Assembly (NCBI RefSeq): GCF_018350175.1
Contig: NC_058368.1
Span: 41,046,001 to 41,110,000 of the forward strand
Source: Felis catus
Taxonomy: Eukaryota
Reading direction: 5' to 3'
Length of the DNA: 64,000 nt
Part shown: positions 661 through 50,822 of the stretch, in pieces
How the letters are laid out: the number at the start of each line of letters is the position of its first letter
Position numbering within the stretch: position 1 is the first letter of the stretch
Notes under the pieces: model-generated
What the model saw: the letters and a program-made list of their open reading frames with translations, nothing else
Database searches by the model: none
What the model was told of the DNA's origin: nothing
Program-made: the position numbers and the translations under genes

Positions 661-1132
661 ATAGATCAACTCAATCCACAGATCAACTCAATCCAGATCA
701 GAGATAATTAATCATTTGAGATAAGGAGCTCCACCTAAATGTTGGGGTGTAGACAGTTTGGATAAGAAAATGGAAGCATAAATAACAAAAGCTTGATAAT
801 GAGCTAAACTTTTAAGAAATCTTGACATATACCTTCTTCCCAATGTTAAAATTGGTTTCAAAATCAGATAGCACTGAGCATATAAGTGAATGTTCACAGT
901 GAAATCCATAGGAAGAATGGAGGAAGACAATTTTTAAGAGAAGCAAGGGATTACCATTTATATGTCAAGGCTTTAATACATAATCTGTGATTGGAATTTG
1001 GAAATTATAGTTGAGCAGAATATGGACACATAGACTGGAGGCAGGAAAATTAGATTTTGTGTTCTTTGGCAATGTACAAAACACCTCCTGAGTGATGACA
1101 TAGAGAATGGACTTATGTTTTCCTTATACAAT
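661..1132 (-). pseudogene. Three exon remnants of the CFAP54-like pseudogene left of L1 #1 (1030-1132, 833-~930, ~661-734)
   Basis: Donor AAG|GTATAT (AC at 831-832) and acceptor catttag (CT at 735-736) define a 98-nt intron. Peptides LYKENISPFSMSSLRRCFVHC and NIHLYAQCYLILKPILTLG. Confidence 0.45.
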
Positions 1133-1134
1133 CT

Positions 1135-4100
1135 TTGTTTTTGTTTTTTTTTCAATATATGAAATTTATTGTCAAATTGGTTTCCATAAAACACTCAGTG
1201 CTCATCCCAAAATGTGCCCTCCTCAATACCATCACCCACCCTCCCCTCCCTCCCACCCCCCATCAACCCTCAGTTTGTTCTCAGTTTTTAAAAGTCTCTT
1301 ATGCTTTGGCTCTCTCTCGCTCTAATCTCTTTTTTTTTTTCCTTCCCCTCCCCCATGAGTTTCTGTTAAGTTTCTCAGGATCCACTTAAGAGTGAAACCA
1401 TATGGTATCTGTCTTTCTCTGTATGGCTTATTTCACTTAGCATCACACTCTCCAGTTCCATCCACGTTGCTACAAAGGGCCATATTTCATTCTTTCTCAT
1501 TGCCACGTAGTACTTCGTTGTGTATATAAACCACAATTTCTTTATCCATTCATCAGTTGATGGACATTTAGGCTCTTTCTATAATTTGGTTTTGTTGAGA
1601 GTGCTGCTATAAACACTGGGGTACAAGTGCCCCTATGCATCAGTACTCCTGTATCCCTTGGATAAGTTCCTAGTAGTGCTACTGCTGGGTCATAGGGTAG
1701 GTCTATTTTTAATTTTTTGAGGAACCTCCACACTGCTTTCCAGAGTGGCTGCACCACTTTGCATTCCCACCAACAGTGGAAGAGGGTTCCCGTTTCTCCA
1801 CATCCTCCCCAGCATCTATAGTCTCCTGATTTGTTCATTTTGGCCACTCTGACTGGCATGAGGTGATATCTGAGTGTGGTTTTGATTTCTATTTCCCTGA
1901 TGAGGAGTGACGTTGAGCATCTTTTCATGTGCCTGTTGGCCTTCTGGATGTCTACTTTAGAGAAGTGTCTATTCATGTTTTCTGCCCATTTCTTCACTGG
2001 GTTATTTGTTTTTCCGGTGTGGAGTTTGGTGAGCTCTTTATAGATTTTGAATACTAGCCCTTTGTCCAATATGTCATTTGCAAATATCTTTTCCCATTCT
2101 GTTGGTTGCCTTTTAGTTTTGTTGGTTGTTTCCTTCGCTGTGCAGAACTTTTTTATCTTCATGAGGTCCCAAGAGTACATTTTTGCTTTTAATTCCCTTG
2201 CCTTTGGGGATGTGTCGAGTAAGAGATTGCTACGGCTGAGGTCAGAGAGGTCTTTTCCTGCTTTTTCCTCTAGGGTTTGGATGGTTTCCTGTCTCACATT
2301 CAGGTCCTTTATCCATTTTGAGGTTATTTTTGTGAATGGTGTGAGAAAGTGGTCTAGTTTCAACCTTCTGCATGTTGCTGTCTAGTTCTCCCAGCACCAT
2401 TTGTTAAAGAGACTGTCTTTTTTCCATTGGATGTTCTTTCCTGCTTTGTCAAAGATGAGTTGGCTATACTTTTGTGGGTCTAGTTCTGGGGTTTCTATTC
2501 TATTCCATTGGTCTATGTGTCTGTTTTTGTGCCAATACCATGCTGTCTTGATGATGACAGCTTTGTAGTAGAGGCTAAAGTCTGGGATTGTGATGCCTCC
2601 TGCTTTGGTCTTCTTCTTCAAAATTACTTTGGCTATTTGGGGCCTTTTGTGGTTCCATATGAATTTTAGGATTGCTTGTTGTAGCTTCGAGAAGAATGCT
2701 GGTGCAATTTTGACTGGGATTGCATTGAATGTGTAGATAGCTTTGGGTAGTATTGACATTTTAACAATATTTATTCTTCCAATCCATGAGCACTGAATGT
2801 TTTTCCATTTCTTTATATCTTGTTCAATTTCCTTCATAAGGTTTCTATAGTTTTCAGCATAAAGATCTTGTATATCTTTGGTTACTTTTATTCCTAGGTA
2901 TTTTATGCTTCTTGGTGCAATTGTGAATGGGATCAGTTTCTTTATTTGTCTTTCTGTTGCTTCATTCTTAGTGTATAAGAATGCAACTGATTTCTGTACA
3001 TTGATTTTGTATCCTGCAACTTTGCTGAATTCATGTATCAGTTCTAGCAGACTTTTGGTGCAGTCTGTCAGATTTTCCATGTATAATATCATGTCATCTG
3101 CAAAAAGCAAAAGCTTGACTTCATCTTTGCCAATTTTGATGCCTTCGATTTCCTTTTGCTGTCTGATTGCTGATGCTCGGACTTCCAACACTATGTTAAA
3201 CAACAGCGGTGAGAGTGGACATCCCTGTCGTGTTCCTGATCTCAGGGAAAAAGCTCTCAGTTTTTCCCCATTGAGGATGATGTTAGCTGTGGGCTTTTCA
3301 TAAATGGCTTTTATGATCTTTAAGTATGTTCCTTCTGTCCCGACTTTCTCGAGGGTTTTTATTAAGAAACGTTGCTGAATTTTGTCAAAGGCCTTTTCTG
3401 CATCTATTGACAGGATCATATGGTTCTTATCTTTTCTTGTATTAATGTGATGTATCACGTTGATTGATTTGCGAATGTTGAACCAGCCCTGCATCCCAGG
3501 AATGAATCTCACTTGATCATGGTGAATAATTCTTTTTATATGCTGTTGAATTCGATTTGCTAGTATCTTATTGAGAATTTTGCATCCATATTCATCAGGG
3601 ATATTGGCCTGTAGTTCTCTTTTTTTACTGGGTCTCTGTCTGGTTTAGGAATCAAAGTAATACTGGCTTCATAGAATGAGTCTGGAAGTTTTCCTTCCCT
3701 TTCTATTTTTTGGGAATAGCTTGAGAAGGATAGATATTATCTCTGCTTTAAACATCTGTTAGAACTCCCCAGGGAAGCCATCTGGTCCTGGACTCTTATT
3801 TGTTGGGAGATTTTTGATGACTGATCAATTTCTTTGCTGGTTATGAGTCTCTTCAAGTTTTCTATTTCCTCCTGATTGAATTTTGAAAGCATGTGGGTGT
3901 TTAGGAATTTGTCCATTTCTTCAGGTTGTCCAGTTTGTTGGCATATAATTTTTCATAGTATTCCCTGATAATTGCTTGTATCTCTGAGGGATTGGTTGTA
4001 ATAATTCCATTTTCATTCATGATTTTATCTATTTGGGTCATCTCCCTTTTCTTTTTGAGAAGACTGGCTAGAAGTTTATCAATTTTGTTCATTTTTTCAA

Positions 4101-6986
4101 AAAACCAACTCTTGGTTTCATTGATCTGCTCTACAATTTTTTTTAGATTCTATATTGTTTATTTCTGCTCTGATCTTTATTATTTCTCTTCTTCTGCAGG
4201 GTTTAGGCTGTCTTTGCTGTTCTGCTTCTATTTCCTTTAGGTGTGCTGTTAGATTTTGTGTTTGGGAGTTTTCTTGTTCTTGAGATAGGCCTGGATTGCA
4301 ATGTATTTTCCTCTCAGGACTGCCTTTGCTGCATCCCAAAGCATTTGGATTGTTGTATTTTCATTTTTGTTTGTTTCCATATATTTTTAAATTTCTTCTC
4401 TAATTGCCTGGTTGACCCACTCATTCTTTAGTAGGGTGTTCTTTAACCTCCATGCTTTTGGAGGTTTTCTAGACTTTTTCCTGTGGTTGATTTCAAGCTT
4501 CATAGCATTGTGGTCTGAAAGTATGCATGGTATGATTTCAATTCTTGTATACTTATGAAGGGCTGTTTTGTGACCCAGTATGTGATCTGTCTTGGAGAAT
4601 GTTCCATGTGCACCCGAGAAGAAAGTATATTCTGTTCCTTTGGGATTCAGAGTTCTAAATATATCTGTCAAGTCCACTTGATCCAATGTATCATTCAAGG
4701 CCCTTGTTTCTTTATTGACCGTGTGTCTAGATGATCTATCCATTTCTGTAAGTGGAGTGTTAAAGTCCCCTGCAATTACCACATTCTTATCAATAAGGTT
4801 GCTTATGTTTGTGAGTAATTGTTTTATATATTTTGGGGCTCCGTATTCGGCGCATAGACATTTATAATTGTTAACTCTTCCTGATGGATAGACCCTGTAA
4901 TTATTATATAATGTCCTTCTTCATCTCTTGTTACAGCCTTTAATTTAAAGTCTAGTTTGTCTGATGTAAGTATAGCTACTCCAGCTTTCTTTTGACTTCT
5001 AGTAGCGTGATGAATAGTTCTCCATCCCCTCACTTTCAATCTAAAGGTGTCCTCAGGTCTAAAATGAGTCTCTTGTAGACAGCAAATAGAGGGGTCTTGT
5101 TTTTTTATCCATTCTCATACCTTATGTCTTTTGGTTGGCGCATTTAGTCCATTACGTTCAGTGTTATTATAGAAAGATATGGGTTTAGAGTCATTTTGAT
5201 GTCTGTGGGTTTCATGCTTGTAGCAATGTCTCTGGTACTTTGTCTCACAGGATCCCCCTTAGGATCTCTTGTAGGGCTGGTTTAGTGGTGATGAATTCCT
5301 TCAGGTTTTGTTTGTTTGGGAAGACCTTTATCTCTCCTTCTATTCTAAATGAGAGACTTGCTGGATAAAGGATTCTCGGCTGCATATTTTTTCTGTTCAT
5401 CACATTGAAGATCTCCTGCCATTCCTTTCTGGCCTGCCAAGTTTCATTAGAGAGATTGGTCACGAGTTATAGGTCTCCCTTTATATGTTAGAGCACGTTT
5501 ATCCCTAGCTGCTTTCACAATTTTCTCTTTATCCTTATATTTTGCCAGTTTCAGTGATATGTCATGCAGAAGATTGATTCAAGTTACATCTGAAGGGATT
5601 TCTCTGTGCCTCTGGATTTCAATGCCTTTTTCCTTCCCCAGATCAGGGAAGTTCTCAGCTATTATTTTTCAAGTACCCCTTCAGCACCTTTCCCTCTCTC
5701 TTCCTCCTCTGGAATACCAATTATGCGTATTTTATTTCTTTTTAGTACATCACTTAGTTCTCTAATTTTCCCCTCATACTCCTGGATATTTTTATCTCTC
5801 TTTTTCTCAGCTTCTTCTTTTTCCATAATTTTATCTTCTAGTTCACCTATTCTCTCCTCTGCCTCTTCAGTTTGAGCCGTGGTTGTCTCCATTTATTTTG
5901 CAGCTCATTAAAAGCATATTTTAGCTCTTCCTGGTTGTTCCTTTGTACTGTTTTCAAGCCCAGCGATTAATTTTATGACTATTATTCTAAATTCACTTTC
6001 TGTTACATTGTTTAAATCATTTTTGATCAGTTCGTTAGTTGTTATTTCCTGGACGTTTTTCTGAGGGGAATTCTTCCGTTTCGTCATTTTGGATAGTCCC
6101 TGGAGTGGTGCGGGACTGCGGGGCATTTCCCCTGAGCTGTCTTGAATAACTCGAGTTGGTCTGCAGGGCTGCAGTCAGACCTGATGTCTGCCCCCAGCCC
6201 ACTGCTGTGGCCACAGTCAGACTGGTGTGTGCCTTCTCTTCCCCTCTCCTAGGGGCAGGATTCACTGTGGGGTGGCGTGGCCAGTTTGGGCTACTTGCAC
6301 ATTACTAGGCTTGTGGTGCTGGGGATCTGGTGTATTAGCCGGGATGGATCGGCAAGGTGCACAGGGGCGGGAGGGGCAGGCTCAGCTTGCTTTTCCTTCA
6401 GAGATCTGCTTGGGGAGGGGCCCTGTGGCACCAGGAGGGAGTGAGACCAGCCTGAGGGATGGATCCCCAGAAGCACAGCATTGGGTGTTCCTGAGGTGCA
6501 AGCAAGTTCCCTGGCAGGAACTGGTTCCCTTTGGGATTTTGGCTGGGGAATGGGCGAGGGAGATGGCGCTGGCCAGCGCCTTTGTTCCCTGCCAAGCTGA
6601 GCTCTGTCATCCAGGGCTCAACAACTCTCCCTCCCGTTGTCCTCCAGCCCTCCCGTTCTCTGAGCAGAACTGTTAGCTTATAACCTTCCAGATGTCAAGT
6701 CCCGCTTGCTGTCAGAACACACTCTGTCCGGCACCTCCGCTTTTGCAAGCCAGACTCTGGGCTCTGCTTGGCTGGCGGGCTGCCCCTCCCCCCCCCGCCA
6801 GTCCTTGGAGCTCGCAGGCCTCTCCGCCCTTCCTACCCTCTTTCGTGGGCCTCTCGTCTGCGCTTGGCTCCAGAGACTCGTTCTGCTAGTCTTCTGGTGA
6901 TTTTCTGGGTTATTTAGGCAGGTGTGGGTGGAATCTAAGTGACCTGCAGGACGCAGTGAGCTCAGCGTCCTCCTACCCCGCCATCT
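1135..6986 (-). mobile_element. Near full-length LINE-1 (carnivore/felid type), ORF1 and ORF2 disrupted
   Basis: Poly(A) tail seen as a T-run at 1135-1152. ORF2 pieces with EN (GDFN, SDH) and RT (LFADD) motifs, ORF1 pieces, and a GC-rich 5'UTR ending ccgccatct. Several frameshifts, and a ~40-bp ORF1 deletion near 5940 relative to copy 2. No TSD visible. Confidence 0.97.
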
Positions 6987-7712
6987 GATTTGTCCTTGGG
7001 TGAAACATTTTTCCTCCTAGATTGCAGAGTAGAGAGGAAACTGGCTCTCACTTCATAGTTCACCTCTATTTCTTCTGCTCAAAAGACATTTTGGTATGGG
7101 ATATTATGCCAATTACAGCCACATTAAAACTGGGTATATCCACGCCACGATGCCAGCGTGCTGCGTTCAGGCCCTGGTGGCTGCCCAGCCTCCACCCCCT
7201 GCCTGTCTGCAGCTGCCAGCCGGAAGCACCAAGACTGCTGTTTCCTCCTTATAGAATCTGTGCAATATGTAAGTCAAGTAATGTATCCAGGTACCTATCA
7301 CAGTGGCGACAACATAGTAAACATTTAAAATGCAAGTTTCCTTTAGTTAACATTACTTTTACCTGTGTTTTTACATGCTATGTAAAATATTAAACAAATA
7401 TACACATATAAAGAATGATGGTACCAGATAAAATTTTCATAAAATAATGAGGTATCTGAAATATTAAAAAAAGTCTTTTAAAAATATTTACAGTATTATC
7501 CTAAAGATATAAAATACAAATTAATATACTGAAGATATAAATATATATATTTACTTATCTTGTACTTCATATATATAAATATATATGTACTTATATTGTG
7601 TATATATATGTATATATACATATATCTCATATGTAGATAATCTTACAAAAATTCAAAAAAATAAATTTGAAGTATGTCCATGGACATTAATATGAATGTT
7701 GTATAATCCTAC

Positions 7713-10954: not shown

Positions 10955-11109
10955 GTAACTGTGTATATTACTTGTGATTTTATCCCTAATTTATTGTACT
11001 TTATACATTTTATCCTATGCTTCTGAGGAGTGTGGCATCTGCTTAAAATCATCTATTATGTTAAGTACAACATATAATGTTAGAACTGACATGATTTTTT
11101 TAAGGGCTC

Positions 11110-11470
11110 GATAACTTGACATGTCATGGCATGTTGTTCAGATTGATACATGAGAGTTACATGGTTGAACTAATATTTTCCCCTGAAATCTTGTTTTTCC
11201 TGTACTATCCAAGCATGATTCCTTCAAAATTTTTTTCATATGGCCACATCATCTTGATCACTCTATCCGTGACTTGCTTTTATTCACTAGCTGCGTATAA
11301 ATGTTGAACTCAGAATTGAAAATAATATTTCAAATCAAGTTTACAGGGACAGAGTGCAGTGGGGCACCAGTCTACATGGCCACTTGAATTCTATCAACAA
11401 TATCTCATATTAGTTTTTAGCAGCCATATCTCACTGCTAATATATTAACCTTGAAATATATTAAAATGTT
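11110..11470. mobile_element. L3/CR1 fragment
   Basis: gaattgaaaataatatttc...acagagtgcagtgggg...ttttagcagccatatctcactg resembles the L3 3' region as recalled. Confidence 0.5.
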
Positions 11471-12850
11471 TTGATATTTTTTTGTAAGCTCGTGGTAAGT
11501 CAAATCTCCACTCTTACTCGCATTGCCAATTATTTCTGACACAGATTTTTCAAATACTTCTTTAAAAAATTCCATTTTTCTTCAAGGTTCAGATGGTCAT
11601 TTTAGCAGGTCCATAATTAATTAATTTTTAATCAATGTCAGGCACTTTCCAACTACACTGGCAATTTCCAAAATATAAAGCATACCAGAATTGTCAAAAC
11701 AAACAAAAAAAAGTATCATTGATCCTTGATATAGGTTGAGAAGTTTTGTACACAATCTTTTCCCCATGTTTTAGGCAACACATCTCTCTGCTTTTGGATT
11801 ATTTTCTACGTTTTTCTTCTGAGTCATCATCATGACTAAGGTGAATATTCCCCAGTCAATAAAATCCTGAAACATCTGCCTTTTACTTATTTCTGCCTTA
11901 TTTAACAATATTTTGCCTAGGTCATTCTTTTGCACCTCATACATTAATTATCTACAAATGTTTCTATATTTTCAAATTTTTATTTAAGCAAACTTTATTA
12001 TTTCAGCTAAAAGTGAAATACCTCTTTTATCTGAAATCTTGATATTTTTGCTCTACCTGCAATTTTCTGGTATCACTAAGCCAAAAATAGGGGCATTTTC
12101 TCATTCTCAAGTGCTACTTTCTCACTTTTCTAACACCTAATTCAACAATCTGTCCTCACTCTAAATTTATACCATTTCTTATCATTTATAAACTTCTAAG
12201 AGACACATCTCCCAACATTCTTCAAGGATTTCCATTTTCAATAAAAATTGCTCATGACCCTGACTTCTCTCTACACAGTACTCTGTCACTATTTCATAAA
12301 AATTGAATACACAGATGGGAGTCTGAAAGCAACCTTGGACATGGTAACCACTCAACTCTTAAGTTTACTACTGAAGAGGAGTGCACCTAATCCCTGATTG
12401 GCCTCCGTTCTTTAATCTTTTGCTGCACCCACATTTTTTAGTCATGACTTTGCTCTCCAGTCTGATAACTAGTTTCTCTATCAGTTATCTCTTTTCTAAA
12501 CATTCTTCCAACTAATATGTACTCCGGATATATTAAATAAACTTTTCATCGATTAAATTTACTAATATCAGCACTTTAATAATTACACTTATTTTGCCAA
12601 TTCAAAATTTCATATAAATTTAAGAATCCATTTTTTCTTCTACTTTTTTTAAGGTTACTAAGCATTGAAATAAAAGGTCACCTTGCAATTATGGATTATA
12701 TTAAAAACAAACACAAAAAAATCCCTATAATTCATTCTCACTGCTTCTCCTAGGATCTGATTAATCACTTTATTCAAATCAAGTTAATTTTATTCTTCTA
12801 ATCAGAGAAAGAATTCCAAACATTTACTATCTTTCCAGAAAGGAGTGAGA

Positions 12851-13281: not shown

Positions 13282-13571
13282 GGGTGGGATAACTTAACTC
13301 TTGTCTTATCATCTCAGAAAATGAGCTCATTTTCTATTCTCTTATGAAGAACAAAATATCCCATTTTAGTATTTACCATCCTTGGTTTTTCCTTGAAATA
13401 TACTTTAGAAGGCATAGCTTTCTGTTTCTGCTAGGAATAACTACACCCTCTTCATATTTACATATTTTTAGATCTTTGCATGGCATTTGCTACTTAGCCT
13501 ATTTTGAATTTCATTCACTGTCTGTATATATACATATTTATTCTGCTTATATATGTACATGTAATATGTTT

Positions 13572-13955: not shown

Positions 13956-14166
13956 ACTCTTACCATAGTTTAAAAAGAACACTTTTCCCTCACAGGTTTC
14001 ACTACCTAACTATACATTCATCCCTTGTCATATTGGATTTTTCTTCTTCTTAATTATGTGTCAAGTTTTTCTTTCACATTTCATCTTTGGATGTTGAAAT
14101 TGAGTGGTCTCCTTCAAATTGTATTTAACTCCTCCTTCCATCAAGTATTATGTTGGTTACTCTTAC

Positions 14167-14434
14167 CTTTCAAATGTTTCTCTTTGGTTTCTTCATTTCC
14201 TCTTTTTTTCCCTATTAGCCCGTAATCCTACATTTTCTATATTTCTTGGTGATATATTGCCACAATTTAGAAAAATATTTTACTTTTAAAGAAAAATATT
14301 TTAAATTTTTCAGTTTTCTGTCTTTGGGCTTCTCTTTTTTGTCCTCTCTAGTCTTTCCCATTGTAATCCATTCACTTCTGGGGTTTCATATTTTACTTCT
14401 TTGTGTATTGTTTACACAGTTCTGTGAGTGGTTG
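14167..14434 (-). pseudogene. Candidate first coding exon of the minus-strand pseudogene
   Basis: Acceptor ...gtcttaag, donor AAG|GTAAGA. ATG at 14361-14359 in good Kozak context (acaATGG). Reads MGKTREDKKEKPKDRKLKNLKYFSLKVKYFSKLWQYITKKYRKCRITG** then further stops. Confidence 0.45.
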
Positions 14435-14658
14435 CTTAAGACAGTAAATATATGGAAACCAATACAAGGTAGAATTGCTAGTGGCATTTGTGTTGAATAA
14501 ATGTTGTCTGATCCATTTTGCACTATGAGCTGCGTAAAGTTGAACTGCACCATGGGTCCCCTTTTTCACAATGATTTTACTTAGCTACGCTTGATAAGCA
14601 ACCAGGACCTTGGCATGCTGATAGAATATAGTGCTAATCCTCTAGAAAGCGTATATAC

Positions 14659-14800
14659 CTCAGTACGTTACAGCAGCCACAAGAATCACCACAAAGTCCC
14701 CTCTTCTCACCCTCTCTCCCACCATAACTGCAGTTATGCCACTGTTTTTTTGCCCCAGAAGCACAATTCGGTGCAGAACTGTACCCAGGAAAACAACATA
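14659..14800. promoter_or_regulatory. Putative bidirectional promoter between the two decayed genes
   Basis: Locally GC-richer interval between a minus-strand donor (GAG|GTATAT, AC at 14657-14658) and the first plus-strand coding-like segment. It contains the perfect palindrome CATAACTGCAGTTATG (14723-14738; TAACTG MYB core on both strands) and a degenerate RFX X-box-like GTACCCAGGAAAAC (14781-14794). Confidence 0.5.
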
Positions 14801-15279
14801 GGTAGTGGTCATTTGTAAAATTAATGAAGTATGGTTCCATTACATTATTCTTGAAAAATACTATGCTGATACACCAACTAGCCCCTGGTTAAAAAAGTCA
14901 CAGGAAAGCTGAAAGACTTTTGTGAATGCCTCAGCTTTAGAAATATTTTAGAAAGACTAATATGAATAAAGTTTTGAATGGTGAAGTTGTATGAATGGGT
15001 AAAGTTTTAAAGTTTAAAAATAAAGATATATCAAAGGAGTTTAATAATTTAGTAAAAGAATAAAAGATAATTTCTAGGTGTGATAGAAATTGGGTCAGGA
15101 TTTTGAAGACAGAGGGACATCAATTCAATTGTTCGGGCATTGAACAGAATTTTTTTTTTTAAATTTAGTTTTGCCTGATAGAGTTTTAAGAATAAAAATA
15201 TTTTTAAATTTAGTTAAATAAATACAGGAACAATAAAACTGTGATGATTTTCTTTTAAAACAGAGCAAAAAGGGCAGGG

Positions 15280-15646: not shown

Positions 15647-17151
15647 ATATGATAAATAAGATAAGCAGTCTATCATATGATGAATTAGGTAACATGAAAT
15701 CTTTCAATATATGGTTCAAAGGAATAAAATTGTTCTTTTGACAATGAGAATATAATTTTCATAGGAAGTTAAACATTTTCTTCCCAAAACAACGAATAAA
15801 TACATTGAAATTTATGCCATTCCATTTATTGAAGATGTCACCAGAAATGTACATAAACTTTCAAGATGAGAAAATGCAAACTAAAATGAATACTGTGATA
15901 GAACAAGTGACCATGACACATGTTTAAGTGTTTTGTTTGTCAAAGTACAGTGTTTCAGTAGAAGCATAGAGGTTACTTGCAAAATTAGCTGCTTATTAAG
16001 TTACAAAAATGAATGTGATATTCTGTTGGTTAATGGTATATTTTAGGACTGTGAAGATCTTGAAATGATATCTAGCCTCCCCCCCACCCCAACTCTGAGG
16101 GCCTGGTGTTTTGGGTGGTGGTCTAGTTGTTGAGAGAGAAAATAGATGTCTTAATATAGATATAATAAACAAAGTTTATAACTATTGTAGGATATTAGTT
16201 GTATCAATAATTGTGTGTTTTCTATACATGATAAGAGGGAGAGATAATTAAAGGGGTAGATTTAAAGACAGAATCTCATTAGCTTTCTTAATTTTAATAG
16301 GGTAAATTGCAGTGAAAACACAACAATCAAATGTAAATTTTTCAACCAGTCTCCTATAATTTATTGTGTTGTTTTGTTTTTCTCTTGTGTTTACTTGAAC
16401 AATAATGTTTTCTTTTATTTTGTTTTGTATTTGCTCTCTTTTGTATTCAGGAGAAAAAAACAATTTTTTGAACCAGTTTTACTTTTAATTCCAAAGAATT
16501 TCTGAAGTCTGGTCAAAGCATCAATATCCACATGATCTGCAATCATATTAATACAAATGCTAAATTTTAGAAAATTGTGACATTCTCCAAGTTTACAAAC
16601 ATGGTGAGCTTTCCTTCCTTCTATCTTGCTTTCTTGCTTTCTTTCTTCTTTCCTTATATTTGTTTTTAGAGAGGGACAGTGCAAGTGGCAAGTGTTGGTG
16701 GGGAGGGGCAGAGGGAGAGAGAGAGAATCTTAATCAGGCTCCACCCTGAGCATGGTGTACCATGTCCCTGGGATCATGACCTGAGAGGAAATCAAGAGTC
16801 AGATGCTCAACTAACTGAGCCACCCTGGAGACCCTCCCTTAATTATTTAAAAATGTTATTTTTCTTTTAAAGTAGTCAATTATAAATATGAAGTCACTAC
16901 TTTTCAAATTATTGTTTAGAATCAAATATATCCAACATGTAAATTAAATCATTTTAGTGGAAATACTTGTTATTAGCTTTAGATCAACTCAGAGTTTCAA
17001 AGATAAGATATTCTACACATGCTTATAAATTATTTTATGAAAACAGAAAAAGTAAATTTCAGCAGCTTACAAGAGAATGGAAAAGTTAAAAATAAATTTA
17101 GGATATATGTTTAGTGTTATGAGGAAAATATTTCTTGAGGAACATAACCAA
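15647..17151 (+). pseudogene. Exons 15647-15688, 15765-16035, 16451-16603 and 16983-17151 of the CFAP46-like pseudogene
   Basis: For example, the acceptor ttttgtatttgctctcttttgtattcag and donor ATG|GTGAGC flank a 153-bp exon. 76-nt intron at 15689-15764. Open stretches KLNIFFPKQRINTLKFMPFHLLKMSPEMY... and DQLRVSKIRYSTHAYKLFYENRK. Confidence 0.6.
16655..16836 (-). mobile_element. Can-SINE
   Basis: gagagaatcttaatcaggctcc...ctgagccaccc. Confidence 0.88.
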
Positions 17152-21715: not shown

Positions 21716-24407
21716 GCTCATTTGTGGACATCAAGATTTAACAATGGGATTGACATCACTTGCTCCAGATGGACTTCTTGGGGATAAGCCCAAACTTCAC
21801 ATATGGTCTTAATTCAGACAGAGGAGGCTTAGTAGTTACAGCATGTAAGAGGGTCATGAGTTAGAATAAGATAGAAATGTTCTTAAATGGTTCAAAGAAT
21901 TGTAACCAGATGCATATTCAGCATATTAATGATTTTGCTTCCAAGTTTAATTTTACCTGCAATTGTAATTGATTCTACAAGTTTTCCCAATATCCCACTG
22001 ATGTACTTGCCATCTGGAGATGCCACATATAGTGACAGTGTTAGCTTTGTGCATAATAAGCAATTGGAAAATGTGCAGAACTTAGTTTTCTCATTTACTA
22101 TATACATGTTATTTTTAAACCTAAGGAATGACCTTTCAAGTATTCAAGTCATGTATTAAATTAGAGAAAAATATGTCCAAATATCTAGTGTTAATAGTAC
22201 ATAAGGTGACTTAATAGTAGTTTTTATAAACTATTGCCAATAGTGAATTATTTATAAAGCTTAATTGCAATAAATATTTTTCCTTAAAATTAATATTTTA
22301 TAATAAATTTTGAGAATATGATACAAAGTACATATTTTTGAATGTTTTTTTTATTTTTTTCAACAAGATTTTTTTAATAAACATTCTTGTGTTGTGCATT
22401 CTTGATATAAACCACAAGGTTAGTATAGGCAACACATTTCAACTTTAAGGATTTTGAATGGAAACAAATTTGCTAGATAAAACTACAACATATTCACTAA
22501 TAAACTGTGCCTGTTTTTATTGATTTTATCTGTATGTTTGACAAGTTACTACAAATATTAAATTTGAATAGGGAGAATACTTATATTTTCAAAGGCCTCC
22601 CTTTTAAAAGATTTGTACATATTAAGATGTCACTTGAGACTTGTGTTTGAATTCTTTGTGAATACTCAATGATCCATGAGGCTGAATTAAATTTCATGTA
22701 AGAAACTATCATATTCAAAGCAACTATGTACTGTAGGTTAGAGCTCAGTTTAGATAATTTCATATGAAAATCACTTCCAGGGTAAACTTAAAAGCATTTT
22801 AAAAATGCTTTGCATGAATTGTCACTATTATATGTATAAATTGAAGAGCATATAATGTATATTAATGATAGAGTCAAACCTTTTTTGACCTTTCCAGTTT
22901 GAGTTTGTTTGTAGTGACTAAATTCATTTTAGTCCATTCTGCATCATTTCATAGAACAACTGTTAGCTAGAAGATGCAGTGCAGTCACTTGAATTTCAAG
23001 GGAGATGCTGAATCAAAATAGCTACGTCAGTATAATGAATGGTATGTTTCTTGAGTTTCTAGTAATATTGATGCCATAAAGATACTATATTCTGTTGTGG
23101 AAAATATATGGAGAAAAATTTTAAACTTTTTGTCAGTAATAATCTCTGGTCTTATGATTTCTGATATCACTCGTTAAATGTGAAGGTGGTGGGAGAGTGA
23201 ATTAATCATATATACCGGACTGAAATGAAAGAAGATTTTTTGTTTATTTATTTGTTTGCATATTTTGGAGCTTTTATAGGATGAGAATAATTGCTTTTCC
23301 AGAAACCTCTCCAATACTACTTCATACAAACACCCAAGAAGAGGGAGAGCTCTGAAGCCAGGGTACTGGATTTTGTGTCCTGTGCCATTTTTAGTAAGTG
23401 TGATCTTAGGCAAAGATTTGACATTTCTGTGCCACATAATCCTTTTTTGTAACATGAAGATGTTGGTAATGCCTTTTAAGATTTTTATAAAGGTTAAAGG
23501 TGCTTAAAGTGCATAAATACTTTGAGATTTACTGGTACATAGTAAACAATCAAGGAACATGTTATTTAACATATTCACTGGAAAGCAATCCTTCAAAACA
23601 AGTACATTTTACACCATGAGTAATCTTGAAATGTATAATTTCTTCAAATGCATTCAGACACACAAATTTGTGCAGTTCTGAAGACTTTTGTGTTTGTATT
23701 TTTTTACCTTAACTTTGATTTAAAGAAAACTGAGAAAAATATGAAGTGAATATAACTGTATTTTATATCAGTCTGTGCATGGTAGTACTTTTCCTACAAA
23801 AGTGATTATTTAAAGTGGGTTACTCTTGCTACTTTATTCTTGTGTGACAAATTACTACACCGGACAACCCATAATCAAAGAAAGTTCGTACGAGTAGAAA
23901 TAATAGCTGGATAAGATTATACTGACTGTTTGTTTGTTTGTTTACTTACTTAATTACTTACTTAATATGGGAACCACAGGAAAGCAAGTTACTAAGCTTT
24001 TTAACTTGATTAGGGAAAAAGCATTAAATGTGAAAAAATCTTAATCTGTTTACCATTGCTACTCTGCATGTAAATGAAAGATTAAACAAAAGTTTCATGA
24101 GTAGATATTTTATAATCTATAGGTCTAATTACAATAAATTTAGAAAAGTCAGAAGTGTAATTTGAAAAAAGAATTTTGATAGTTACTAGGATATGTAGAT
24201 CGGCTGGGCTTCTTAAAATATCAGATGCAGTGGGTAGTGTTGTTATATGGATGGGGTTTTAGACAGCATAATGGCACTTTGTGACTATGTCTGATATTTT
24301 TACATCACAAAAATTGGAAGTGAATGGATTTTGATTAATTGAAAAATTATAAAAAGGGCATACAGAAGATAAAGGATTAAATGATGTCTGGAAAGTTTAG
24401 AATAATG
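21716..24407 (+). pseudogene. Exons 21716-21844, 22955-23041 and weaker candidates (22595-22736, 24183-24407) of the CFAP46-like pseudogene
   Basis: Donors CAT|GTAAGA (21845) and ATG|GTATGT (23042). Peptides LICGHQDLTMGLTSLAPDGLL and QLLARRCSAVT*ISREMLNQ. Confidence 0.5.
23345..23570 (+). mobile_element. MIR SINE
   Basis: gtgtgatcttaggcaaagatttgacatttctgtgcc core and ctggtacatagtaaacaatcaa tail. Confidence 0.7.
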
Positions 24408-25597: not shown

Positions 25598-28500
25598 GCT
25601 GAATCATTTACATTCCCACAAGCAAAGTATGAGGGTTCTTCTTTCTTAATATCTGTTACTCTCTGAATCTTCTTATAGCCATCTTAGTGAGTGTGAAGTG
25701 AAATCTCACTGTGGTTTTTATTTACATTTTCCTGATTACTAATGTTAAAAATTTTTTTTCATGTGCCTATTGTGTATTCTGCTTTTGCTTTGTGTAGTGT
25801 TCTATAGGTTCTGTTAGGTCTAGTTGGCTAAAAGTTTTGTTCAAGTGTTTAATTTCCTTTTTCATTGTCTGTGTAGTTTTTCTATCCAAGTTGAAAGTGT
25901 AATATTGAGTGTCTAAATATTTTTATTGAATTGACTAAATCTTACTTTAATTCTGTTTTTCTTTATATCCCAATTCTCTGTTTTTAGGTTGATATATGTC
26001 TACAATTGTTATTTCTTCTAATAGATGTTTTATGTTTATAAAGTGTCCCTCTTAATCTTTAGTAACAATTTTTGCCTTAATTGTCTGATATTAGTATAGC
26101 CATCTAGCTCTTTTTGTTTACTGCTTCAGTGATATATACTATTCCATATGTGTACTTTAAACCAATATTTAAAAATCCTGTTTGGATTAACATCAATTTA
26201 ATTTCAGTAGTGTACAAATACAGTGCTCCTCCATGGCTCCCTTAACTCCACACTCCTTTGTGCTGTCATTGTCATAAAAATGATATCTTTACACATTATA
26301 AGCCATCAAACAGTTTTATAATTTTAAGGCAGCTTTGTGCAATTGTCTTTTACATCATACAGGAAATAAAAAAAAAAAAACTACAGAAATCATGTTTAAA
26401 CTGTCTTTATATTTTTCTAAGTAGTTACATGTGCTTTTTATTACATTTGCTCTTTATTTCTTCATGTGAATTTGATTAACTTTCTGGGGTCCTTTCATTT
26501 ATAACTGAAGAAATTCTTTTAATTTTGTGAATGTCTTTATCTGTCCTTCATTTTTGAAGGATAGTTATGCTGGATATAGAATTATTGGTTAAGAGTGTTT
26601 TCTTGCTTTTTGCTTTTTGGTTCCTCTCCCACCCCCCAGCGCTAGCCCCCAGGAATCTGAATATGTCATCCCATATTGGCCTCCATAGTTCCTGGTGAAA
26701 AATTTGTTGTTACACTTACTGAGGATTTCTTTACCACATGACGAATCGCTTCTCTCGTTATTTTTTAGATCCTCTGTTTGCATTTGGCTTTCGACAGTTT
26801 GCTTATGATATGTCTATGTCTGAACCTTTTAAATTATCCAACTTGAAATTCATTTATTAGAGGCAGAGATTAATTTTATCATGAAATTTGAAAAGTGTGG
26901 GGCATTTTTTTCAAATATCTTCTCTGCCTCTTGCTCCCACCCCACTCTCCTGGGACTCGCGTCTTATCCGTGTTGGTATGCTTGACGCTGTCACAGAAGT
27001 CTAGGAGACTCTACTCCTTTTTTTCGTTTTCTCTTTGTCTCTCACACCAGATAATATAAATTGACCTGTCTTTAAGTTTGCTGACTTTTTATTATGCCAG
27101 CTCAAATATAACATTGACACCTCTGGTAATCTTTTTAAAGATTTTAGTCATTATACTTTTCAATTCCAGAATTTGTTCTGTTCTTTTCATTTCACTTCAT
27201 TTGTTATGTTCTTTTCATACTGTCTGTTTCTTTGTTGTTATTTGCTATTTAGTGAGGCATTATTCTCACACTTTCCTTTAATTATTTAGATAGGGTTTCC
27301 TTATGTTGTTATATTAGAAATAAATATTTTAATGTTTTTGTCTAGAAAATTAACCTCTGAATTTCCTCTTGTTTTTTCTATTGATTTCTTTTTTCTCTTG
27401 TGTATGAACATTCTAGATGTAGATTCTTAGCATGAAACCCAGACATTTTAAATAATATAACATACAAACTCTTGAAATCAGTTTCCTCCCTTCTTCAGGA
27501 ATGGTTAAATGTTTTGGAGTTCTTATTCTGTAAACTGTGTATTCTTTGTCATGTATAATCTGTGAGTGTCTGCTCATTTAGCTTAATGATCAGCTAATGA
27601 TTGAAAGGAGATTTTCTGCAATGCCTAAAACCACTAAGTCTCTTGGCTTTTCTTGACGGGTTCTCTTTCTGTGTTGAGGCATGCTGTCATTTTTCAGATA
27701 GGAATTTAGTTACAACTCTGTCTTAGCATTCACTTCCAGTTGGTGCAGATCCTCAAGATGAGCCAGAGATGAGAGTTTGGGGCCTTCCTAGGTCTTTTCC
27801 TGAAAATCATATAGCTTTATACATGTGCATTGAGTTCTTGAATAAATATGTCCTTTTTTTTTAAATCTCCTTGGGACGTCAGACATCTTATTTACCGACT
27901 TTACCTTTGAAGTTTTGGGTTTGTTGCTTTCCCTAACTGTTATTGCCACCTCAGGCAGCTGCTGTGTTAAACAATTCTTACTGATTGTTTTTGACAAGCA
28001 CCACCGAGAACAGGCTGTTCACACTGGAGGGGCTCTAAGGCAAATGAAATAAAGGCAACCCTTGTGAAGGGGGCGGGGTGTTTCTCGGAAATTACCAGAC
28101 AGGTTAGGTAATGATATTTCTCAGGGTGTGAGGATTTGGCGGGGGGTGTCCAATTCATTTCTTCCCCTTTCTTTGTCTGCTAAGCTTTTGGTTTTCACCA
28201 TGAGTGCTGGTCTGTATATTTTCAAGGTTACTGGGGAACTGAAGAAAGGAAGACAGGAACAGAGCTGGTTAAATGCCACACAGCTTACTTTTCTCAAAGT
28301 GATTTTTCTTCAGTAAATGTTCCCTGGAGTTTTGCAAACCATGTGTTAGCTTTCAGAGTTCTGAAAAAGTTACTTTTGGTAATTTTTGTCATTGTTCTTA
28401 CGGTTTCATAAGAGGGATTATTTTTGGAGTCCATACTCCATTATTCCCTCAGACATTACCCTATACTACCCCGTATTCCTCCATGTGTTTCATGTAAATA

Positions 28501-29740: not shown

Positions 29741-32330
29741 ATTTACTCGAAGCAATTTGGACATATGGGGGAAAAGAGAAATAGAAAAATTCAAAAAATT
29801 CTTAGAAAAATTTATTGGGAACCAGTGAATAACTTTAATATTTTCCTCAAGTACTTCTCCAAAACTTATTTAACTTAAAAAGAACTTATTTATCAACCAG
29901 GCCCCTTGTCAGGAAAATAGATTGCTCAATGGATTAGTCAGTTGCTTTCTAATAATAATATTTTGCCTAACTCCTCAATTATAACTTTATTTTCATTGCT
30001 TTATTATATGGAACATGAAAGTAGATATATATTTATTCTTAGATAATCAATAAAACCATTAAATTCTAAATTTATAATTAGTATCCATATATACTATAGA
30101 ACCTCAAATGTTTGTGATTTACACTGATTTTTATATTTATTTGTTTAGTACAATGATTAAATAAACATCAGGAGGTTATATAACTTTAAAATGCGCTCGA
30201 GTTCATACAGGTAAAAGTTTAAAATTACATGTGTGTTATATATATATATGTTTATAAGTATATGTATGCATATATGTATCTATATACATGAATGTAAATA
30301 TGTGTATGTGTATACATATGCACACATACATATTATGCATACATATGCGTTTTTATTTACAAACTATTTTTTCCTGTTTAAATAGGGAAAATTTAAAAGA
30401 TTTTATAGGGCTTATGCCTGAGAATGTGGATCTACAATAAAATTTCCACTAGCACCTTCCATTGTATGTCCTTGAAAATACTGTTTGAGCTTTTTCACAT
30501 TTAAAAAATAAAAGGGTAAAATTCAAGGGAATGTTTTTTATTCCAAAATTGCTGGAATATGCTGCTTGTTTTTGTTTTTGTTTTTGTTTTTTTTTGTACT
30601 TCTGTTTACTTGACATCAAAATGAGATGTCTTATTTTTCTATTAAATATGATAAATATTATTTGAGTTCAGCTAGACCAATGTCTAATCCTTCAACTTAA
30701 GAGTATAGACATCCTTACTTTGTCTTTTAAAGAGTGGATCTGTATATAGCCATTACAGACTTCTAGGAAAACTAAAAGAGGTTCCTAGTTTTAAGTTTGG
30801 AATCTACACTTGACAGTGGTAAGAAAAGAAAACACTTTTCTTGTGTACTCTTGCTTTTCCTCCTTATTGCATTTGGATTTTTTCTGTAACAGATATTGGA
30901 AAATATGGGCATTGTGTGTGTGTGTGTGTGTCTGTGTGTGTATATATAGTATATATGTATATGATAAACATGTTTATATATATTTGTGTATGTATACAAA
31001 TAATTCAAACAATATTTTGCCTCCTTATGAGGAATTATATGTGTTCAGTTAACTAAAATAGATATGAAAATATGGACAGACTCCATAGGCACTATCTTTT
31101 TTAGTAAATTCATGGATGGATGGATGGACCGATGTGCATATAAATTAATATAGCCATTGTAATAATATGTATAGGAAAATCCTGAGCAAAGATAAAACAT
31201 GATTTCTTCTAGTAATTCTGGGAAGCTGTTTATACTGAGAAAAAATTAGGCATTTTTCTCATCTCCTGGGCCACTTAAATGAAGATTGTTCTGTTATTCT
31301 TTGTATCACTTATATTCTTTATTTTTCATATTGTATGAATTATTAATATGTTGAAAACATAATGAAAATTTCATGGATACATTGAAAAAATGTTTCTAGA
31401 CTAACCATACAGAAACATATTATTCAGAATAGTGAGTTGCAAAATACACTTTTTCATTGTAAGCACTTTTAACAGCAGGCAGAAAACTATGTTAAAAATT
31501 TCCCCAATTTTACTTTATTGTTTTTAGTGTCCAAGAGAGTTATATGGTTATTGCTATTTAACATAGGATTACTAAAGCTGTGACTAAGTCTTATCCAGTC
31601 GTTTACACATTATTATATTCTCTGGTTGATTGGATAGAAATAAAGGCAAAGTTAGTGAGTTATATTAGACAATATTATCGGTTTTATTATTGTTTTGATA
31701 CATTTATGTCACTATCTTAAAAATTATCAGACTAAAAACAATCATAAACTTGTTCCAAAATGCATTAACAGTGGAATAGGAAAATGTTAAGTGCATATTT
31801 ATTAAATTACACTGGTTAAAAATAGCACTTCACTGATTAATTTGCTACATAATCATATTTCTATATTTATAAGTACTTTTATATCCATTTTTCAATCTAT
31901 CCATTTGCATCATTGTAAACAAAACAAGGAATAAAATCAGTAAGCCTGAATACTCTGAGTGAAACATAGGAAGTATTTACAAGAAAGAAAATATACAAGA
32001 ATTGACATATAGTGCAAAACATAAAAAATTAATGGAGGATTATTGGCAAATGGATGATTTATTTATTTCTTTTATCCTATATTTTCATCCATAAAAACTC
32101 GATTTTAACGATGCCTATGAAGTGTCAGCTCACCTCCGTATTTCCTCTCCCCCCAAAAAGTTCCTTGTTAAGTTAAAAAATTATAATGTTTTAGGTTTAA
32201 TTTTGTGAGGGAAATATCATTACACATGGATAATTATCCATGTTAGGTTTATATCATATTAAAAGTCTTTTCATAACATGAAAGCATTCCTGGATTAAAG
32301 TGGGATCTATAACATAAAATATAGTGTGCT

Positions 32331-46200: not shown

Positions 46201-46947
46201 TTTTTTTAAATATATAAAATAAATATAATGATGAAGTTTAATATAAAAATAAAACTAAACAAAAGCCTTACCCTTTCAAATATTTGATAGAAGGATATTC
46301 TTTTTAAATTTGAATTAAATTTGAATAATGTTCAATTAAATTAATTGATAGTTATTTTGCTACTTTTTTTCTTATCTCCTTTGTATTATGTACCTTGTGA
46401 AAATACTTAATACATTTACATATTTTTCTGTAGGATGTAGATTTTATGTAAACCACAGAAAATAAGATTAAAGTCTTTGCTTAAGAAGTGGATAATATTT
46501 TTATGTGAATTCTAAAATATTTTTCTCCTGGTGAGTTTCATGTATAAACTCTAAATATCTCCCTGGGTTGAACAATACACATATGTAATTTAACATGTTC
46601 TTCATAGAAATGCAAAATTCAAGAAAAAAATGCAGAAGAAAACAAAACTTTTTTTTTTTAATTTTTTAACGTTTATTTATTTATTTTTTGTTTTGTTTTG
46701 TTTATTTGTTTCTTTATTTTTTTATATATAAAATTTATTGACAAATTGGTTTCCATACAACACCCAGTGCTCATCCCAAAAGGTGCCCTCCTCAATACCC
46801 ATCACCCACCCTCTCCTCCCTCCCACCCCCCATCAACCCTCAGTTTGTTCTCAGTTTTTAACAGTCTCTTATGCTTTGGCTCTTTCCCGCTCTAACCTGT
46901 TTTTTTTTTTTTTCCTTCCCCTCCCCCATGGGTTCCTGTTAAGTTTC

Positions 46948-49900
46948 TCAGGATCCACATAAGAGTGAAACCATATGGTGTCTGTCTTTCTCTGTATGGC
47001 TTATTTCACTTAGCATCACACTCTCCAGTTCCATCCACGTTGCTACAAAAGGCCATATTTCATTTTTTCTCATTGCCACGTAATATTCCATTGTGTATAT
47101 AAACCACAATTTCTTTATCCATTCATCAGTTGATGGACATTTAGGCTCTTTCCATAATTTGGCTATTGTTGAGAGTGCTGCTATGAACATTGGGGTACAA
47201 GTGGCCCTATGCATCCGTACTCCTGTATCCCTTGGATAAATTCCTAGCAGTGCTATTGCTGGGTCATAGGGTAGGTCTATTTTTAATTTTCTGAGGAACC
47301 TTCACACTGCTTTCCAGAGCGGCTGCACCAATTTGCATTCCCACCAACAGTGCAAGAGGGTTCCCGTTTCTCCACATCCTCTCCAGCATCTATAGTCTCC
47401 TGATTTGTTCATTTTGGCCACTCTGACTGGCGTGAGGTGATACCTGAGTGTGGTTTTGGTTTGTATTTCCCTGATAAGGAGCGACGCTGAACATCTTTTC
47501 ATGTGCCTGTTGGCCATCCGGATGTCTTCTTTAGAGAAGTGTCTATTCATGGTTTCTGCCCATTTCTTCACTGGGTTATTTGTTTTTGGGTGTGGAGTTT
47601 GGTGAGCTCTTTATAGATTTTGGATACTAGCCCTTTGTCCGATATGTCATTTGCGAATATCTTTTCCCATTCCGTTGGTTGCCTTTTAGTTTTGTTGGTT
47701 GTTTCCTTTGCTGTGCAGAAGCTTTTTATCTTCATAAGGTCCCAGTAATTCACTTTTGCTTTTAATTCCCTTGCCTTTGGGGATGTGTCGAGTAAGAGAT
47801 TGCTACGGCTGAGGTCAGAGAGGTCTTTTCCTGCTTTCTCCTCTAAGGTTTTGATGGTTTCCTGTCTCACATTCAGGTCCTTTATCCATTTTGAGTTTAT
47901 TTTTGTGAAATGGTGTGAGAAAGTGGTCTAGTTTCAACCTTCTGCATGTTGTTGTCCAGTTCTCCCAGCACCATTTGTTAAAGAGGCTGTCTTTTTTCCA
48001 TTGGATGTTCTTTCCTGCTTTGTCAAAGATGAGTTGGCCATACGTTTGTGGGTCTAGTTCTGGGGTTTCTATTCTGTTCCATTGGTCTATGTGTCTGTTT
48101 TTGTGCCAATACCATGCTGTCTTGATGATGACAGCTTTGTAGTAGAGGCTAAAGTCTGGGATTGTGATGCCTCCTGCCTTGGTCTTCTTCTTCAAAATTC
48201 CTTTGGCTATTCGGGGCCTTTTGTGGTTCCATATGAATTTCAGGATTGCTTGTTCTAGTTTTGAGAAGAATGCTGGTGCAATTTTGATTGGGATTGCATT
48301 GAATGTGTAGATAGCTTTGGGTAGTATTGACATTTTGACAATATTTATTTTTCCAATCCATGAGCAGGGAATGTCTTTCCAATTATTTAAATCTTCTTCA
48401 ATTTCCTTCATAAGCTTTCTATAGTTTTCAGCATACAGATCCTTTACATCTTTGGTTAGATTTATTCCTAGGTATCTTATGCTTCTTGGTGCAATTGTGA
48501 ATGGGATCAGTTTCTTTATTTGTCTTTCTGTTGCTTCATTGTTAGTGTGTAAGAATGCAACTGATTTCTGTACATTGATTTTGTATCCTGCAACTTTGCT
48601 GAATTCCTGTATCAGTTCTAGCCGACTTTTGGTGGAGTCTATCGGATTTTCCATGTATAATATCATGTCATCTGCAAAAAGCGAAAGTTTGACTTCATCT
48701 TTGCCAATTTTGATGCCTTTGATTTCCTTTTGTTGTCTGATTGCTGATGCTAGAACTTCCAGCACTATGTTAAACGGCAGCGGTGAGAGTGGGCATCCTT
48801 GTCGTGTTCCTGATCTCAGGGAGAAAGCTCTCAGTTTTTCCCCGTTGAGGATGATGTTAGCTGTGGGCTTTTCATAAATGGCTTTTATGATCTTTAAGTA
48901 TGTTCCTTCTATCCCGACTTTCTCAAGGGTTTTTATTAAGAAACCGTGCTGGATTTTGTCAAAGGCCTTTTCTGCATCGATTGACAGGATCATATGGTTC
49001 TTATCTTTTCTTTTGTTAATGTGATGTATCACGTTGATTGATTTGCGAATGTTGAACCAGCCCTGCATCCCAGGAATGAATCCCACTTGATCATGGTGAG
49101 TAATTCTTTTTATATGCCGTTGAATTCGATTTGCTAGTATCTTATTGAGAATTTTTGCATCCATATTCATCAGGGATATTGGCCTGTAGTTCTCTTTTTT
49201 GACTGGGTCTCTGTCTGGTTTAGGAATCAAAGTAATACTGGCTTCATAGAATGAGTCTGGAAGTTTTCCTTCCCTTTCTATTTCTTGGAATAGCTTGAGA
49301 AGGATAGGTATTATCTCTGCTTTAAACGTCTGGTAGAACTCCCCTGGGAAGCCATCTGGTCCTGGACTCTTATTTGTTGGGAGATTTTGGATAACCGATT
49401 CAATTTCTTCGCTGGTTATGGGTCTGTTCAAGCTTTCTATTTCCTCCTGATTGAGTTTTGGAAGAGTGTGGGTGTTCAGGAATTTGTCCATTTCTTCCAG
49501 GTTGTCCAATTTGTTGGCATATAATTTTTCATAGTATTCCCTGATAATTGTTTGTATCTCTGAGGGATTGGTTGTAATAATTCCATTTTCATTCATGATT
49601 TTATCTATTTGGGTCATTTCCCTTTTCTTTTTGAGAAGCCTGGCTAGAGGTTTGTCAATTTTGTTTATTTTTTCAAAAAACCAACTCTTGGTTTCGTTGA
49701 TCTGCTCTACAGTCTTTTTAGATTCTATATTGTTTATTTCTGCTCTGATCTTTATTATTTCTCTTCTTCTGCTGGGTTTAGGCTGCCTTTGCTGTTCTGC
49801 TTCTAGTTCCTTTAGGTGTGCTGTTAGATTTTCTATTTGGGATTTTTCTTGTTTCTTGAGATAGGCCTGGATTGCAATGTATTTTCCTCTCAGGACTGCC

Positions 49901-50772: not shown

Positions 50773-50822
50773 TGTGATGTCTGTATGTTTTATGCTTGTA
50801 GTGATGTCTCTGGGACTTTGTC

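What the first reader, a model, noticed from the sequence alone, without database searches (positions are those of the whole stretch)
14659..14800. Bidirectional promoter with a perfect 16-bp palindromic double MYB site and a degenerate X-box
Seen: CATAACTGCAGTTATG at 14723-14738 is a perfect palindrome with TAACTG on each strand, located between the two divergent genes. GTACCCAGGAAAAC at 14781-14794 is an imperfect RFX X-box. Established: A-MYB (MYBL1) binds YAACKG and drives bidirectional spermatocyte promoters, including pachytene piRNA clusters, and RFX2/3 drive ciliary genes. Inference: spermatocyte co-expression of both genes. The palindrome is intact while the ORFs are decayed, which hints the promoter may still be active.
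Basis: partly seen in the sequence, partly recalled or inferred. Interest (0 to 1): 0.7.

Follow-up and report, generated by a model that had tools for sequence, protein, structure and literature searches.

The report
Probably chance MYB palindrome, gene desert
A short mirror-image DNA word that fits a sperm-cell gene switch really is present in this cat-family genome, but words like it arise by chance, the two genes it was said to control could not be found, and at most it may mark the start of an ordinary non-coding testis transcript.

Summary
The 16-bp palindrome (14723-14738) is real and carries YAACKG on each strand. One arm implies the other, so this is one observation. Any 16-bp palindrome is expected about twice per 64 kb; one carrying a MYB core 0.005 times, one carrying any of 20 common cores 0.44 times. 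The X-box is weak (16 window sites match a loose consensus as well). The two divergent decayed genes were not confirmed: protein searches found nothing named, and 0 of 14 segments had fewer stops than shuffles. Earlier notes place the window in the desert between TDRD3 and PCDH9. For a promoter: the window's largest GC-skew switch lies here, and splice-donor/poly(A)-signal layout points leftward (one-way, not two-way). Against: TA skew moves the wrong way, and RNA-labelled runs hold the stretch only in proportion to their genome coverage. Conservation, start sites and binding were not testable. Verdict: chance word 0.50; one-way testis non-coding promoter 0.28; shared promoter of two dead genes 0.10. 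The scan's index showed no such finding on other DNA.

The parts
14723..14738 (.). Perfect 16-bp palindrome; single copy in the window
14725..14730 (+). YAACKG (MYB core) match, TAACTG
   Evidence: consensus from PMC10754281
14731..14736 (-). Mirror YAACKG match, abutting the first; follows automatically from the palindrome
14781..14794 (+). X-box-like 14-mer; weak (5 mismatches to strict, 1 to loose consensus)
14601..14800 (.). Local GC rise to 46% (7% of 259 tiles outside the two young L1s are as high); not a CpG island (o/e 0.26 for 14501-15000)
14652..14657 (.). TATATA word, reads both ways; not a full TATAWAW match; 376 such words in the window
14416..14916 (.). Largest negative-to-positive GC-skew switch of the repeat-masked window; TA skew shifts the opposite way
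14705..14713 (-). Splice-donor-like site (GT at 14710, 4.3 bits on a rough matrix), 13 bp left of the palindrome
14167..14282 (-). Exon-like piece: weak acceptor, strong donor-like site (GT at 14166, 7.2 bits); no protein match found
14965..15237 (+). Six AATAAA/ATTAAA signals within about 500 bp right of the palindrome, with no donor-like site before them
16451..16603 (+). Exon-like piece (pyrimidine tract, AG ... GT, 153 nt); 2-3 stops in every + frame; no protein match found
11003..12502 (-). Purine-rich stretch that reads protein-like by eye; matches only two unnamed short ORF calls; stop count not below shuffles

Best explanation
The palindrome is a chance word in single-copy, AT-rich gene-desert DNA of a cat-family genome and does nothing. 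It was noticed because it sits where base composition flips: the left arm is purine-rich on the minus strand and the right arm on the plus strand, so both read like decayed coding sequence pointing outward. The flip most likely comes from very old, unrecognised insertions or other sequence of opposite orientation (inferred; not shown). Shown: chance rates, absence of protein matches, normal stop density, weak X-box. Inferred: absence of function and the cause of the flip.
For: About 2 such palindromes are expected per window and 4 are seen outside TA repeats. Look-elsewhere rate 0.44. The exact 16-mer occurs in at least 114 unrelated metagenome loci, none with homologous flanks (best 32 of 80 flank matches, mean 19.8). 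0 of 14 segments had fewer stops than dinucleotide shuffles (p 0.057-1.0). No named protein was found in Pfam (one short RELT hit 9 kb away), in 10 PDB searches (best E 0.081), in 3 word-based searches or among 1.84 billion representatives (two unnamed ORFs). In 14 RNA-labelled or RNA-guessed rows the share of the stretch held tracks each run's size relative to the genome (Pearson 0.83), as DNA carry-over would give. TA skew shifts by -0.13 to -0.17, whereas mammalian transcribed strands gain both T and G (PMC2927911, passages). A second skew jump of 0.20-0.36 lies at 56.6 kb.
Against: The palindrome lies within about 300 bp of the window's largest GC-skew switch (top 1% of points; block-shuffle p for a jump this large anywhere 0.004-0.105 over 9 settings). 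The donor/poly(A) pattern is matched by 0 of 479 other grid points on all four counts and by 13 of 479 on a looser rule (thresholds set after seeing the site, points overlap). A MYB-carrying palindrome as such is rare (0.005 per window). 4 of 14 runs hold more of the stretch than their size predicts. The flanks did not match the window's own L1 proteins, so the old-insertion cause is unshown. All protein searches lose power on frameshifted relics and the word-based ones stop at 2000 residues.
Confidence: 0.5

Rival explanations
1. A low-CpG testis promoter for a spliced non-coding RNA that runs leftward (minus strand). A-MYB binds one of the two abutting cores in pachytene spermatocytes and polymerase starts both ways. 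The leftward transcript is protected by donor sites at 14710 and 14166, while the rightward one is cut at the poly(A) signals at 14965-15237 and degraded. Binding, start site and tissue are all inferred.
For: Within 600 bp: minus direction 0 poly(A) signals and 2 donors, plus direction 6 signals and 0 donors. This is the layout described for one-way promoters (PMC4085477, passages). GC-skew switch in the expected direction. Local GC rise. MYB core present. Low-CG promoters are common among A-MYB-driven piRNA loci (49 of 100; PMC7782496).
Against: TA skew is in the wrong direction. No run of modest size holds the stretch at a high share. No CRE, GC-box, TCFL5 or full TATA word lies in 14450-15000. 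Donor scores come from a rough recalled matrix. If 14710 ends exon 1, the palindrome would be inside the transcript or at its start.
Confidence: 0.28
2. One reading: the shared promoter of two head-to-head protein genes (one ciliary), both now pseudogenes, co-activated by A-MYB and RFX and possibly still firing.
For: Outward-pointing purine-rich arms and the skew switch. Exon-like pieces on each side (14167-14282 minus; 16451-16603 plus). An unnamed ORF call from other DNA is 55% identical to 11774-11947 minus (P0002), so that stretch has a diverged counterpart elsewhere.
Against: No named homologue on either side in any search. Normal stop density. About 50% identity is what neutral divergence gives in any frame (inference). 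The rightward arm meets six poly(A) signals before any donor of 3 bits or more. The X-box is weak. The interval is recalled as having no protein genes in human or mouse.
Confidence: 0.1
3. A replication origin or a distal enhancer (for example of PCDH9) that produces the skew switch, with the palindrome incidental or used by a somatic MYB factor.
For: The skew switch and GC rise. Position in a large regulatory desert (earlier notes). Upward skew jumps at origins are recalled, not tested.
Against: TA skew does not jump with GC skew. No factor cluster. No chromatin data.
Confidence: 0.08
4. Central promoter of an unannotated, divergently transcribed pachytene piRNA cluster.
For: Intergenic, low-CG, MYB core, outward asymmetry; 41 of 100 mouse and 46 of 89 human clusters are divergent (PMC7782496).
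Against: Productive clusters tend to have first exons of 10 kb or more or to be unspliced. Here donors lie 13 and 560 bp to the left and poly(A) signals 230 bp to the right. Such clusters are few per genome and would be abundant in testis RNA; the run search gave no sign of that.
Confidence: 0.04

Closest known systems
A-MYB (MYBL1)-bound spermatocyte promoters, including lncRNA genes (PMC10754281, PMC10060231, PMC7782496; passages read)
   Same: YAAC(G/T)G core present; low CpG; intergenic; weak X-box-like word nearby (RFX2 motifs are enriched in pachytene open chromatin).
   Different: Those are defined by ChIP signal near a mapped start site and loss in the mutant; none of that is available here. 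A search for A-MYB + bidirectional promoter + palindrom + spermatocyte returned 1 review (listing only), and no listed paper held the AACTGCAGTT word, so no special role for this abutting double site was found in those searches.
Divergently transcribed pachytene piRNA clusters (PMC7782496, PMC11615739; passages read)
   Same: Central low-CG region with a MYB core and outward-facing strand asymmetry.
   Different: Early donors on the left and early poly(A) signals on the right argue against long first exons; no small-RNA evidence.
One-way promoters with upstream antisense RNA, U1/poly(A)-signal axis (PMC4085477; passages read)
   Same: Donor-rich, signal-poor on one side; signal-rich, donor-poor on the other.
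   Different: Inferred from sequence only, after the fact, in AT-rich DNA where the signals are common (384 in the window).
RFX X-box promoters of ciliary genes (PMC5024701, PMC7498320; passages read)
   Same: 14-bp word starting GT and ending AAC.
   Different: Poor match to the strict consensus; functional X-boxes in PMC5024701 were picked by cross-species conservation, which is not shown here; no ciliary gene identified.

Membership tests
A-MYB-bound spermatocyte promoter | YAAC(G/T)G core | tested here: met
   Two abutting matches; 57 such cores in the window
A-MYB-bound spermatocyte promoter | A-MYB ChIP peak within 500 bp of a start site and over 2-fold loss in the mutant (definition in PMC7782496) | not testable with these tools
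   No ChIP or mutant data held
A-MYB-bound spermatocyte promoter | Transcription start in spermatocytes | tested here: inconclusive
   Run shares track genome coverage; tissue unknown; no read-level data examined
Bidirectional promoter of a head-to-head gene pair | A gene or pseudogene on each side, pointing outward | tested here: not met
   No named homologue and normal stop density; searches are weak for heavily frameshifted relics
Bidirectional promoter of a head-to-head gene pair | Both directions productive (donors early, poly(A) signals scarce) | tested here: not met
   Rightward arm has 6 signals and 0 donors in 600 bp
Bidirectional promoter of a head-to-head gene pair | Two divergent start sites within about 1 kb (recalled definition) | not testable with these tools
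   No 5'-end data examined
Bidirectional promoter of a head-to-head gene pair | CpG island (usual, recalled; not required for testis promoters) | tested here: not met
   GC 0.40, CpG o/e 0.26 for 14501-15000
RFX X-box | Match to the 13-15-bp inverted consensus | tested here: not met
   5 mismatches to strict form, 3 to the N-spacer form, 1 to a loose form shared by 16 window sites (consensus forms recalled)
RFX X-box | Cross-species conservation | tested here: inconclusive
   No orthologue reachable
RFX X-box | RFX binding | not testable with these tools
   No binding data
Pachytene piRNA cluster | Low-CG promoter (about half of clusters) | tested here: met
   uninformative, since most of the window is CpG-poor
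Pachytene piRNA cluster | Long first exon (10 kb or more) or long unspliced precursor | tested here: inconclusive
   Early donors left, early poly(A) signals right argue against; use of these sites not shown
Pachytene piRNA cluster | Abundant piRNA reads from one or both arms | not testable with these tools
   No small-RNA data examined

The most novel reading that the evidence does not exclude
An orphaned A-MYB promoter with an abutting double site has outlived two unrecognised, head-to-head testis genes in the PCDH9 desert and still fires in felid spermatocytes, now making non-coding or piRNA-precursor RNA from the dead arms.
Probability: 0.05. Interest if true: 0.55.

Novelty: not a real feature. 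Interest (0 to 1): 0.15.

Why it matters
As most likely read, it does not matter: it is one of some 170-210 MYB-carrying 16-bp palindromes that chance puts in a genome of this size. If the one-way promoter reading holds, it adds one more unannotated testis non-coding transcript of a known kind. Only the least likely reading would interest a specialist: a promoter kept after both its genes died, or a new piRNA locus born from one, would be a clean test case for how pachytene piRNA loci arise and for whether A-MYB uses abutting inverted sites.

Tried and rejected
Identifying flanking genes. Pfam on 146 of 178 stop-to-stop ORFs of 38 aa or more in 7.0-24.5 kb (repeat-derived and a few other ORFs left out) and on 45 stop-read-through frames: only a short RELT hit at 23.8-23.9 kb. 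PDB sequence search, 10 of 10 with best E 0.081. Word-based searches, 3 of 3 empty. HMMER on 1.84 billion representatives: two unnamed singleton ORFs. ESM Atlas: low scores or no usable hit. By-eye resemblances to FSIP2, a P2Y-type receptor (9.3 kb) and WD40 repeats (21.7-22.1 kb) were recalled leads and got no Pfam support; the PDB query for the receptor idea was in another frame. L1 origin of the flanks: no tblastn hit between 7.0 and 25.7 kb with the window's own L1 proteins; other repeat classes could not be tested. Structured RNA: Rfam 0 matches; folding of 14690-14800 z = -1.09. No long terminal or inverted repeats in 14000-15250 that would mark a transposon. Rough exon-pair scans gave nothing convincing near the site. 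Four RNA-labelled or RNA-guessed rows with shares under 0.2 are no evidence alone and enter only the size comparison. No whole genome is held. Paper searches: PCDH9 + PCDH20 + gene desert + testis, 0 papers; 13q21 + LINC01052, 1 unrelated; PMC3671569 not held. Supplements of PMC5024701 (its X-box consensus list) were not read and bear on the X-box test.

Full report
Setting. The window is AT-rich (about 33-35% GC) mammalian DNA with carnivore-type SINEs (recognised from recall) and two minus-strand L1 elements at about 1.1-7.0 kb and 46.7-52.6 kb. No whole genome is held. Earlier notes of this scan, which I did not check, call the genome a felid and place the window 5.10 Mb after a DIAPH3 note, 4.50 Mb after a TDRD3 note and 1.56 Mb before a note 42 kb upstream of PCDH9. 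That is the desert on the 3' side of PCDH9, which I recall as free of protein genes in human and mouse.

The observation. The two MYB cores abut, and the second follows from the first by symmetry, so 'palindrome' and 'double site' are one fact. Markov simulations give 1.6-2.05 four-letter palindromes of 16 bp or more per 64 kb; the window has four outside TA microsatellites, two of them 20 bp. One carrying YAACKG is expected 0.005 times per window, about 170-210 times per 2.4-Gb genome. One carrying any of 20 recalled factor cores is expected 0.44 times, which is the fairer figure for a word picked after the fact. The X-box-like word has 5 mismatches to the strict consensus (424 window sites as good), 3 to the N-spacer form (321 sites) and 1 to a loose form (16 sites) (forms recalled). 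The region is not a CpG island.

The two genes. The finding rests on two divergent, decayed genes. I could not identify either. Pfam on 146 of 178 candidate ORFs and on 45 read-through frames gave one hit above a cut-off, a 21-residue RELT-like stretch 9 kb away. Ten PDB searches gave a best E of 0.081. Three word-based searches were empty. The most protein-like frame (11003-12502, minus) matched only two unnamed singleton ORF calls of 57 and 75 residues among 1.84 billion representatives; these show related DNA elsewhere, not a gene. In 14 segments chosen as the best candidates, the most open frame never had significantly fewer stops than shuffles (p 0.057-1.0). These tests lose power on heavily frameshifted relics and on very long proteins, so old pseudogenes are not excluded, but nothing supports them.

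Signs for a promoter. After masking repeats found within the window (40,196 bases left), GC skew is -0.16 left of the site and +0.13 right of it, and the largest jump of the window falls at 14416-14916. Shuffling and flipping blocks of 1-3 kb gave p = 0.004-0.105 for a jump this large anywhere (9 settings). Within 600 bp the minus direction has 0 poly(A) signals and 2 donor-like sites, the plus direction 6 and 0; 0 of 479 other grid points were as extreme on all four counts, 13 of 479 on a looser rule. That layout marks one-way promoters (PMC4085477, passages) and would point leftward. GC rises to 46% over 200 bp, top 7% of tiles. These tests were chosen after seeing the site and are partly linked through composition.

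Signs against. Mammalian transcribed strands gain both T and G (PMC2927911, passages); here TA skew shifts the wrong way by 0.13-0.17, and a second GC jump of 0.20-0.36 lies at 56.6 kb. The run search listed 24 runs: 6 of genome size hold the whole stretch, 14 RNA-labelled or RNA-guessed rows hold 0.13-0.67 of it, and 4 raw-read runs are not indexed. Taking 'million letters' as contig total (inference), the share tracks the fraction of a genome each run covers (Pearson 0.83, n = 14; 4 of 14 above it), as DNA carry-over would give. No read-level data were examined, so start site, strand and tissue remain open. No orthologue was reachable: 114 metagenome loci with the exact 16-mer had unrelated flanks, and 0 of 10 window ORFs were in the protein collection. 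Rfam had no match and the region does not fold better than shuffles (z = -1.09).

How it would work if real. A-MYB recognises YAAC(G/T)G (PMC10754281, passages) and acts on already open chromatin, with RFX2 named as a candidate pioneer (PMC10060231, passages). It could bind either core and release polymerase both ways; donors at 14710 and 14166 would protect a leftward spliced non-coding RNA while the rightward RNA ends at 14965-15237. Whether two proteins fit on abutting cores is unknown; two searches found no paper on this arrangement (listings only). Only 28% overlap was reported between A-MYB peaks and MYB-motif elements in active testis chromatin, so the motif alone predicts little. A piRNA cluster is unlikely: productive ones favour first exons of 10 kb or more or unspliced precursors (PMC7782496, passages; PMC11615739, passages).

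Verdict. Chance word at a compositional switch 0.50; one-way low-CpG testis promoter of a non-coding RNA 0.28; shared promoter of two dead genes 0.10; origin or enhancer 0.08; piRNA cluster 0.04. These odds are my judgement. The sequence is real; the system as described is not supported. Interest 0.15.

Noticed in passing
window 23832-23945, minus: A 21-residue stretch passes Pfam's RELT cut-off (26.9 vs 25 bits, E 2.5e-6, 1 of 146 ORFs; 24.7 bits in a longer read), then meets a stop. RELL1, RELL2 and RELT lie near protocadherin/ARAP/DIAPH paralogues (recalled), so a relic between DIAPH3 and PCDH9 would be curious, but a chance transmembrane-like match is more likely; Atlas gave no usable hit.
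   Followed up: partly
window 13316-13335 and 32224-32243: Two perfect 20-bp palindromes outside repeats, longer than the one flagged; a 16-bp one at 6565-6580 lies in the L1 5' region.
   Followed up: partly
window 46700-52650, minus: Near full-length young L1 with a 1014-residue open ORF2 stretch (47818-50859) and a 326-residue ORF1 stretch (50826-51803).
   Followed up: partly
window 1130-7005, minus: Second, more decayed near full-length L1 whose 5' end lies about 7.7 kb from the palindrome.
   Followed up: no
window 11774-11947, minus: Matches unnamed ORF calls P0001 (96%) and P0002 (55%); P0002 continues into the window's neighbouring frame, suggesting a 1-base indel between the two DNAs.
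   Followed up: partly
window about 56600-56700: Second GC-skew jump (0.20-0.36) between T/C-rich and purine-rich stretches, probably old repeats of opposite orientation.
   Followed up: no
window 14550-14555: CCATGG gives an ATG on both strands: a 10-codon ORF with a strong start context on plus, a 55-codon ORF on minus; the minus ORF is not in the protein collection.
   Followed up: partly
window 25771-26815, minus and 58481-58810, plus: Old L1 fragments detected by tblastn with the window's own L1 proteins.
   Followed up: no
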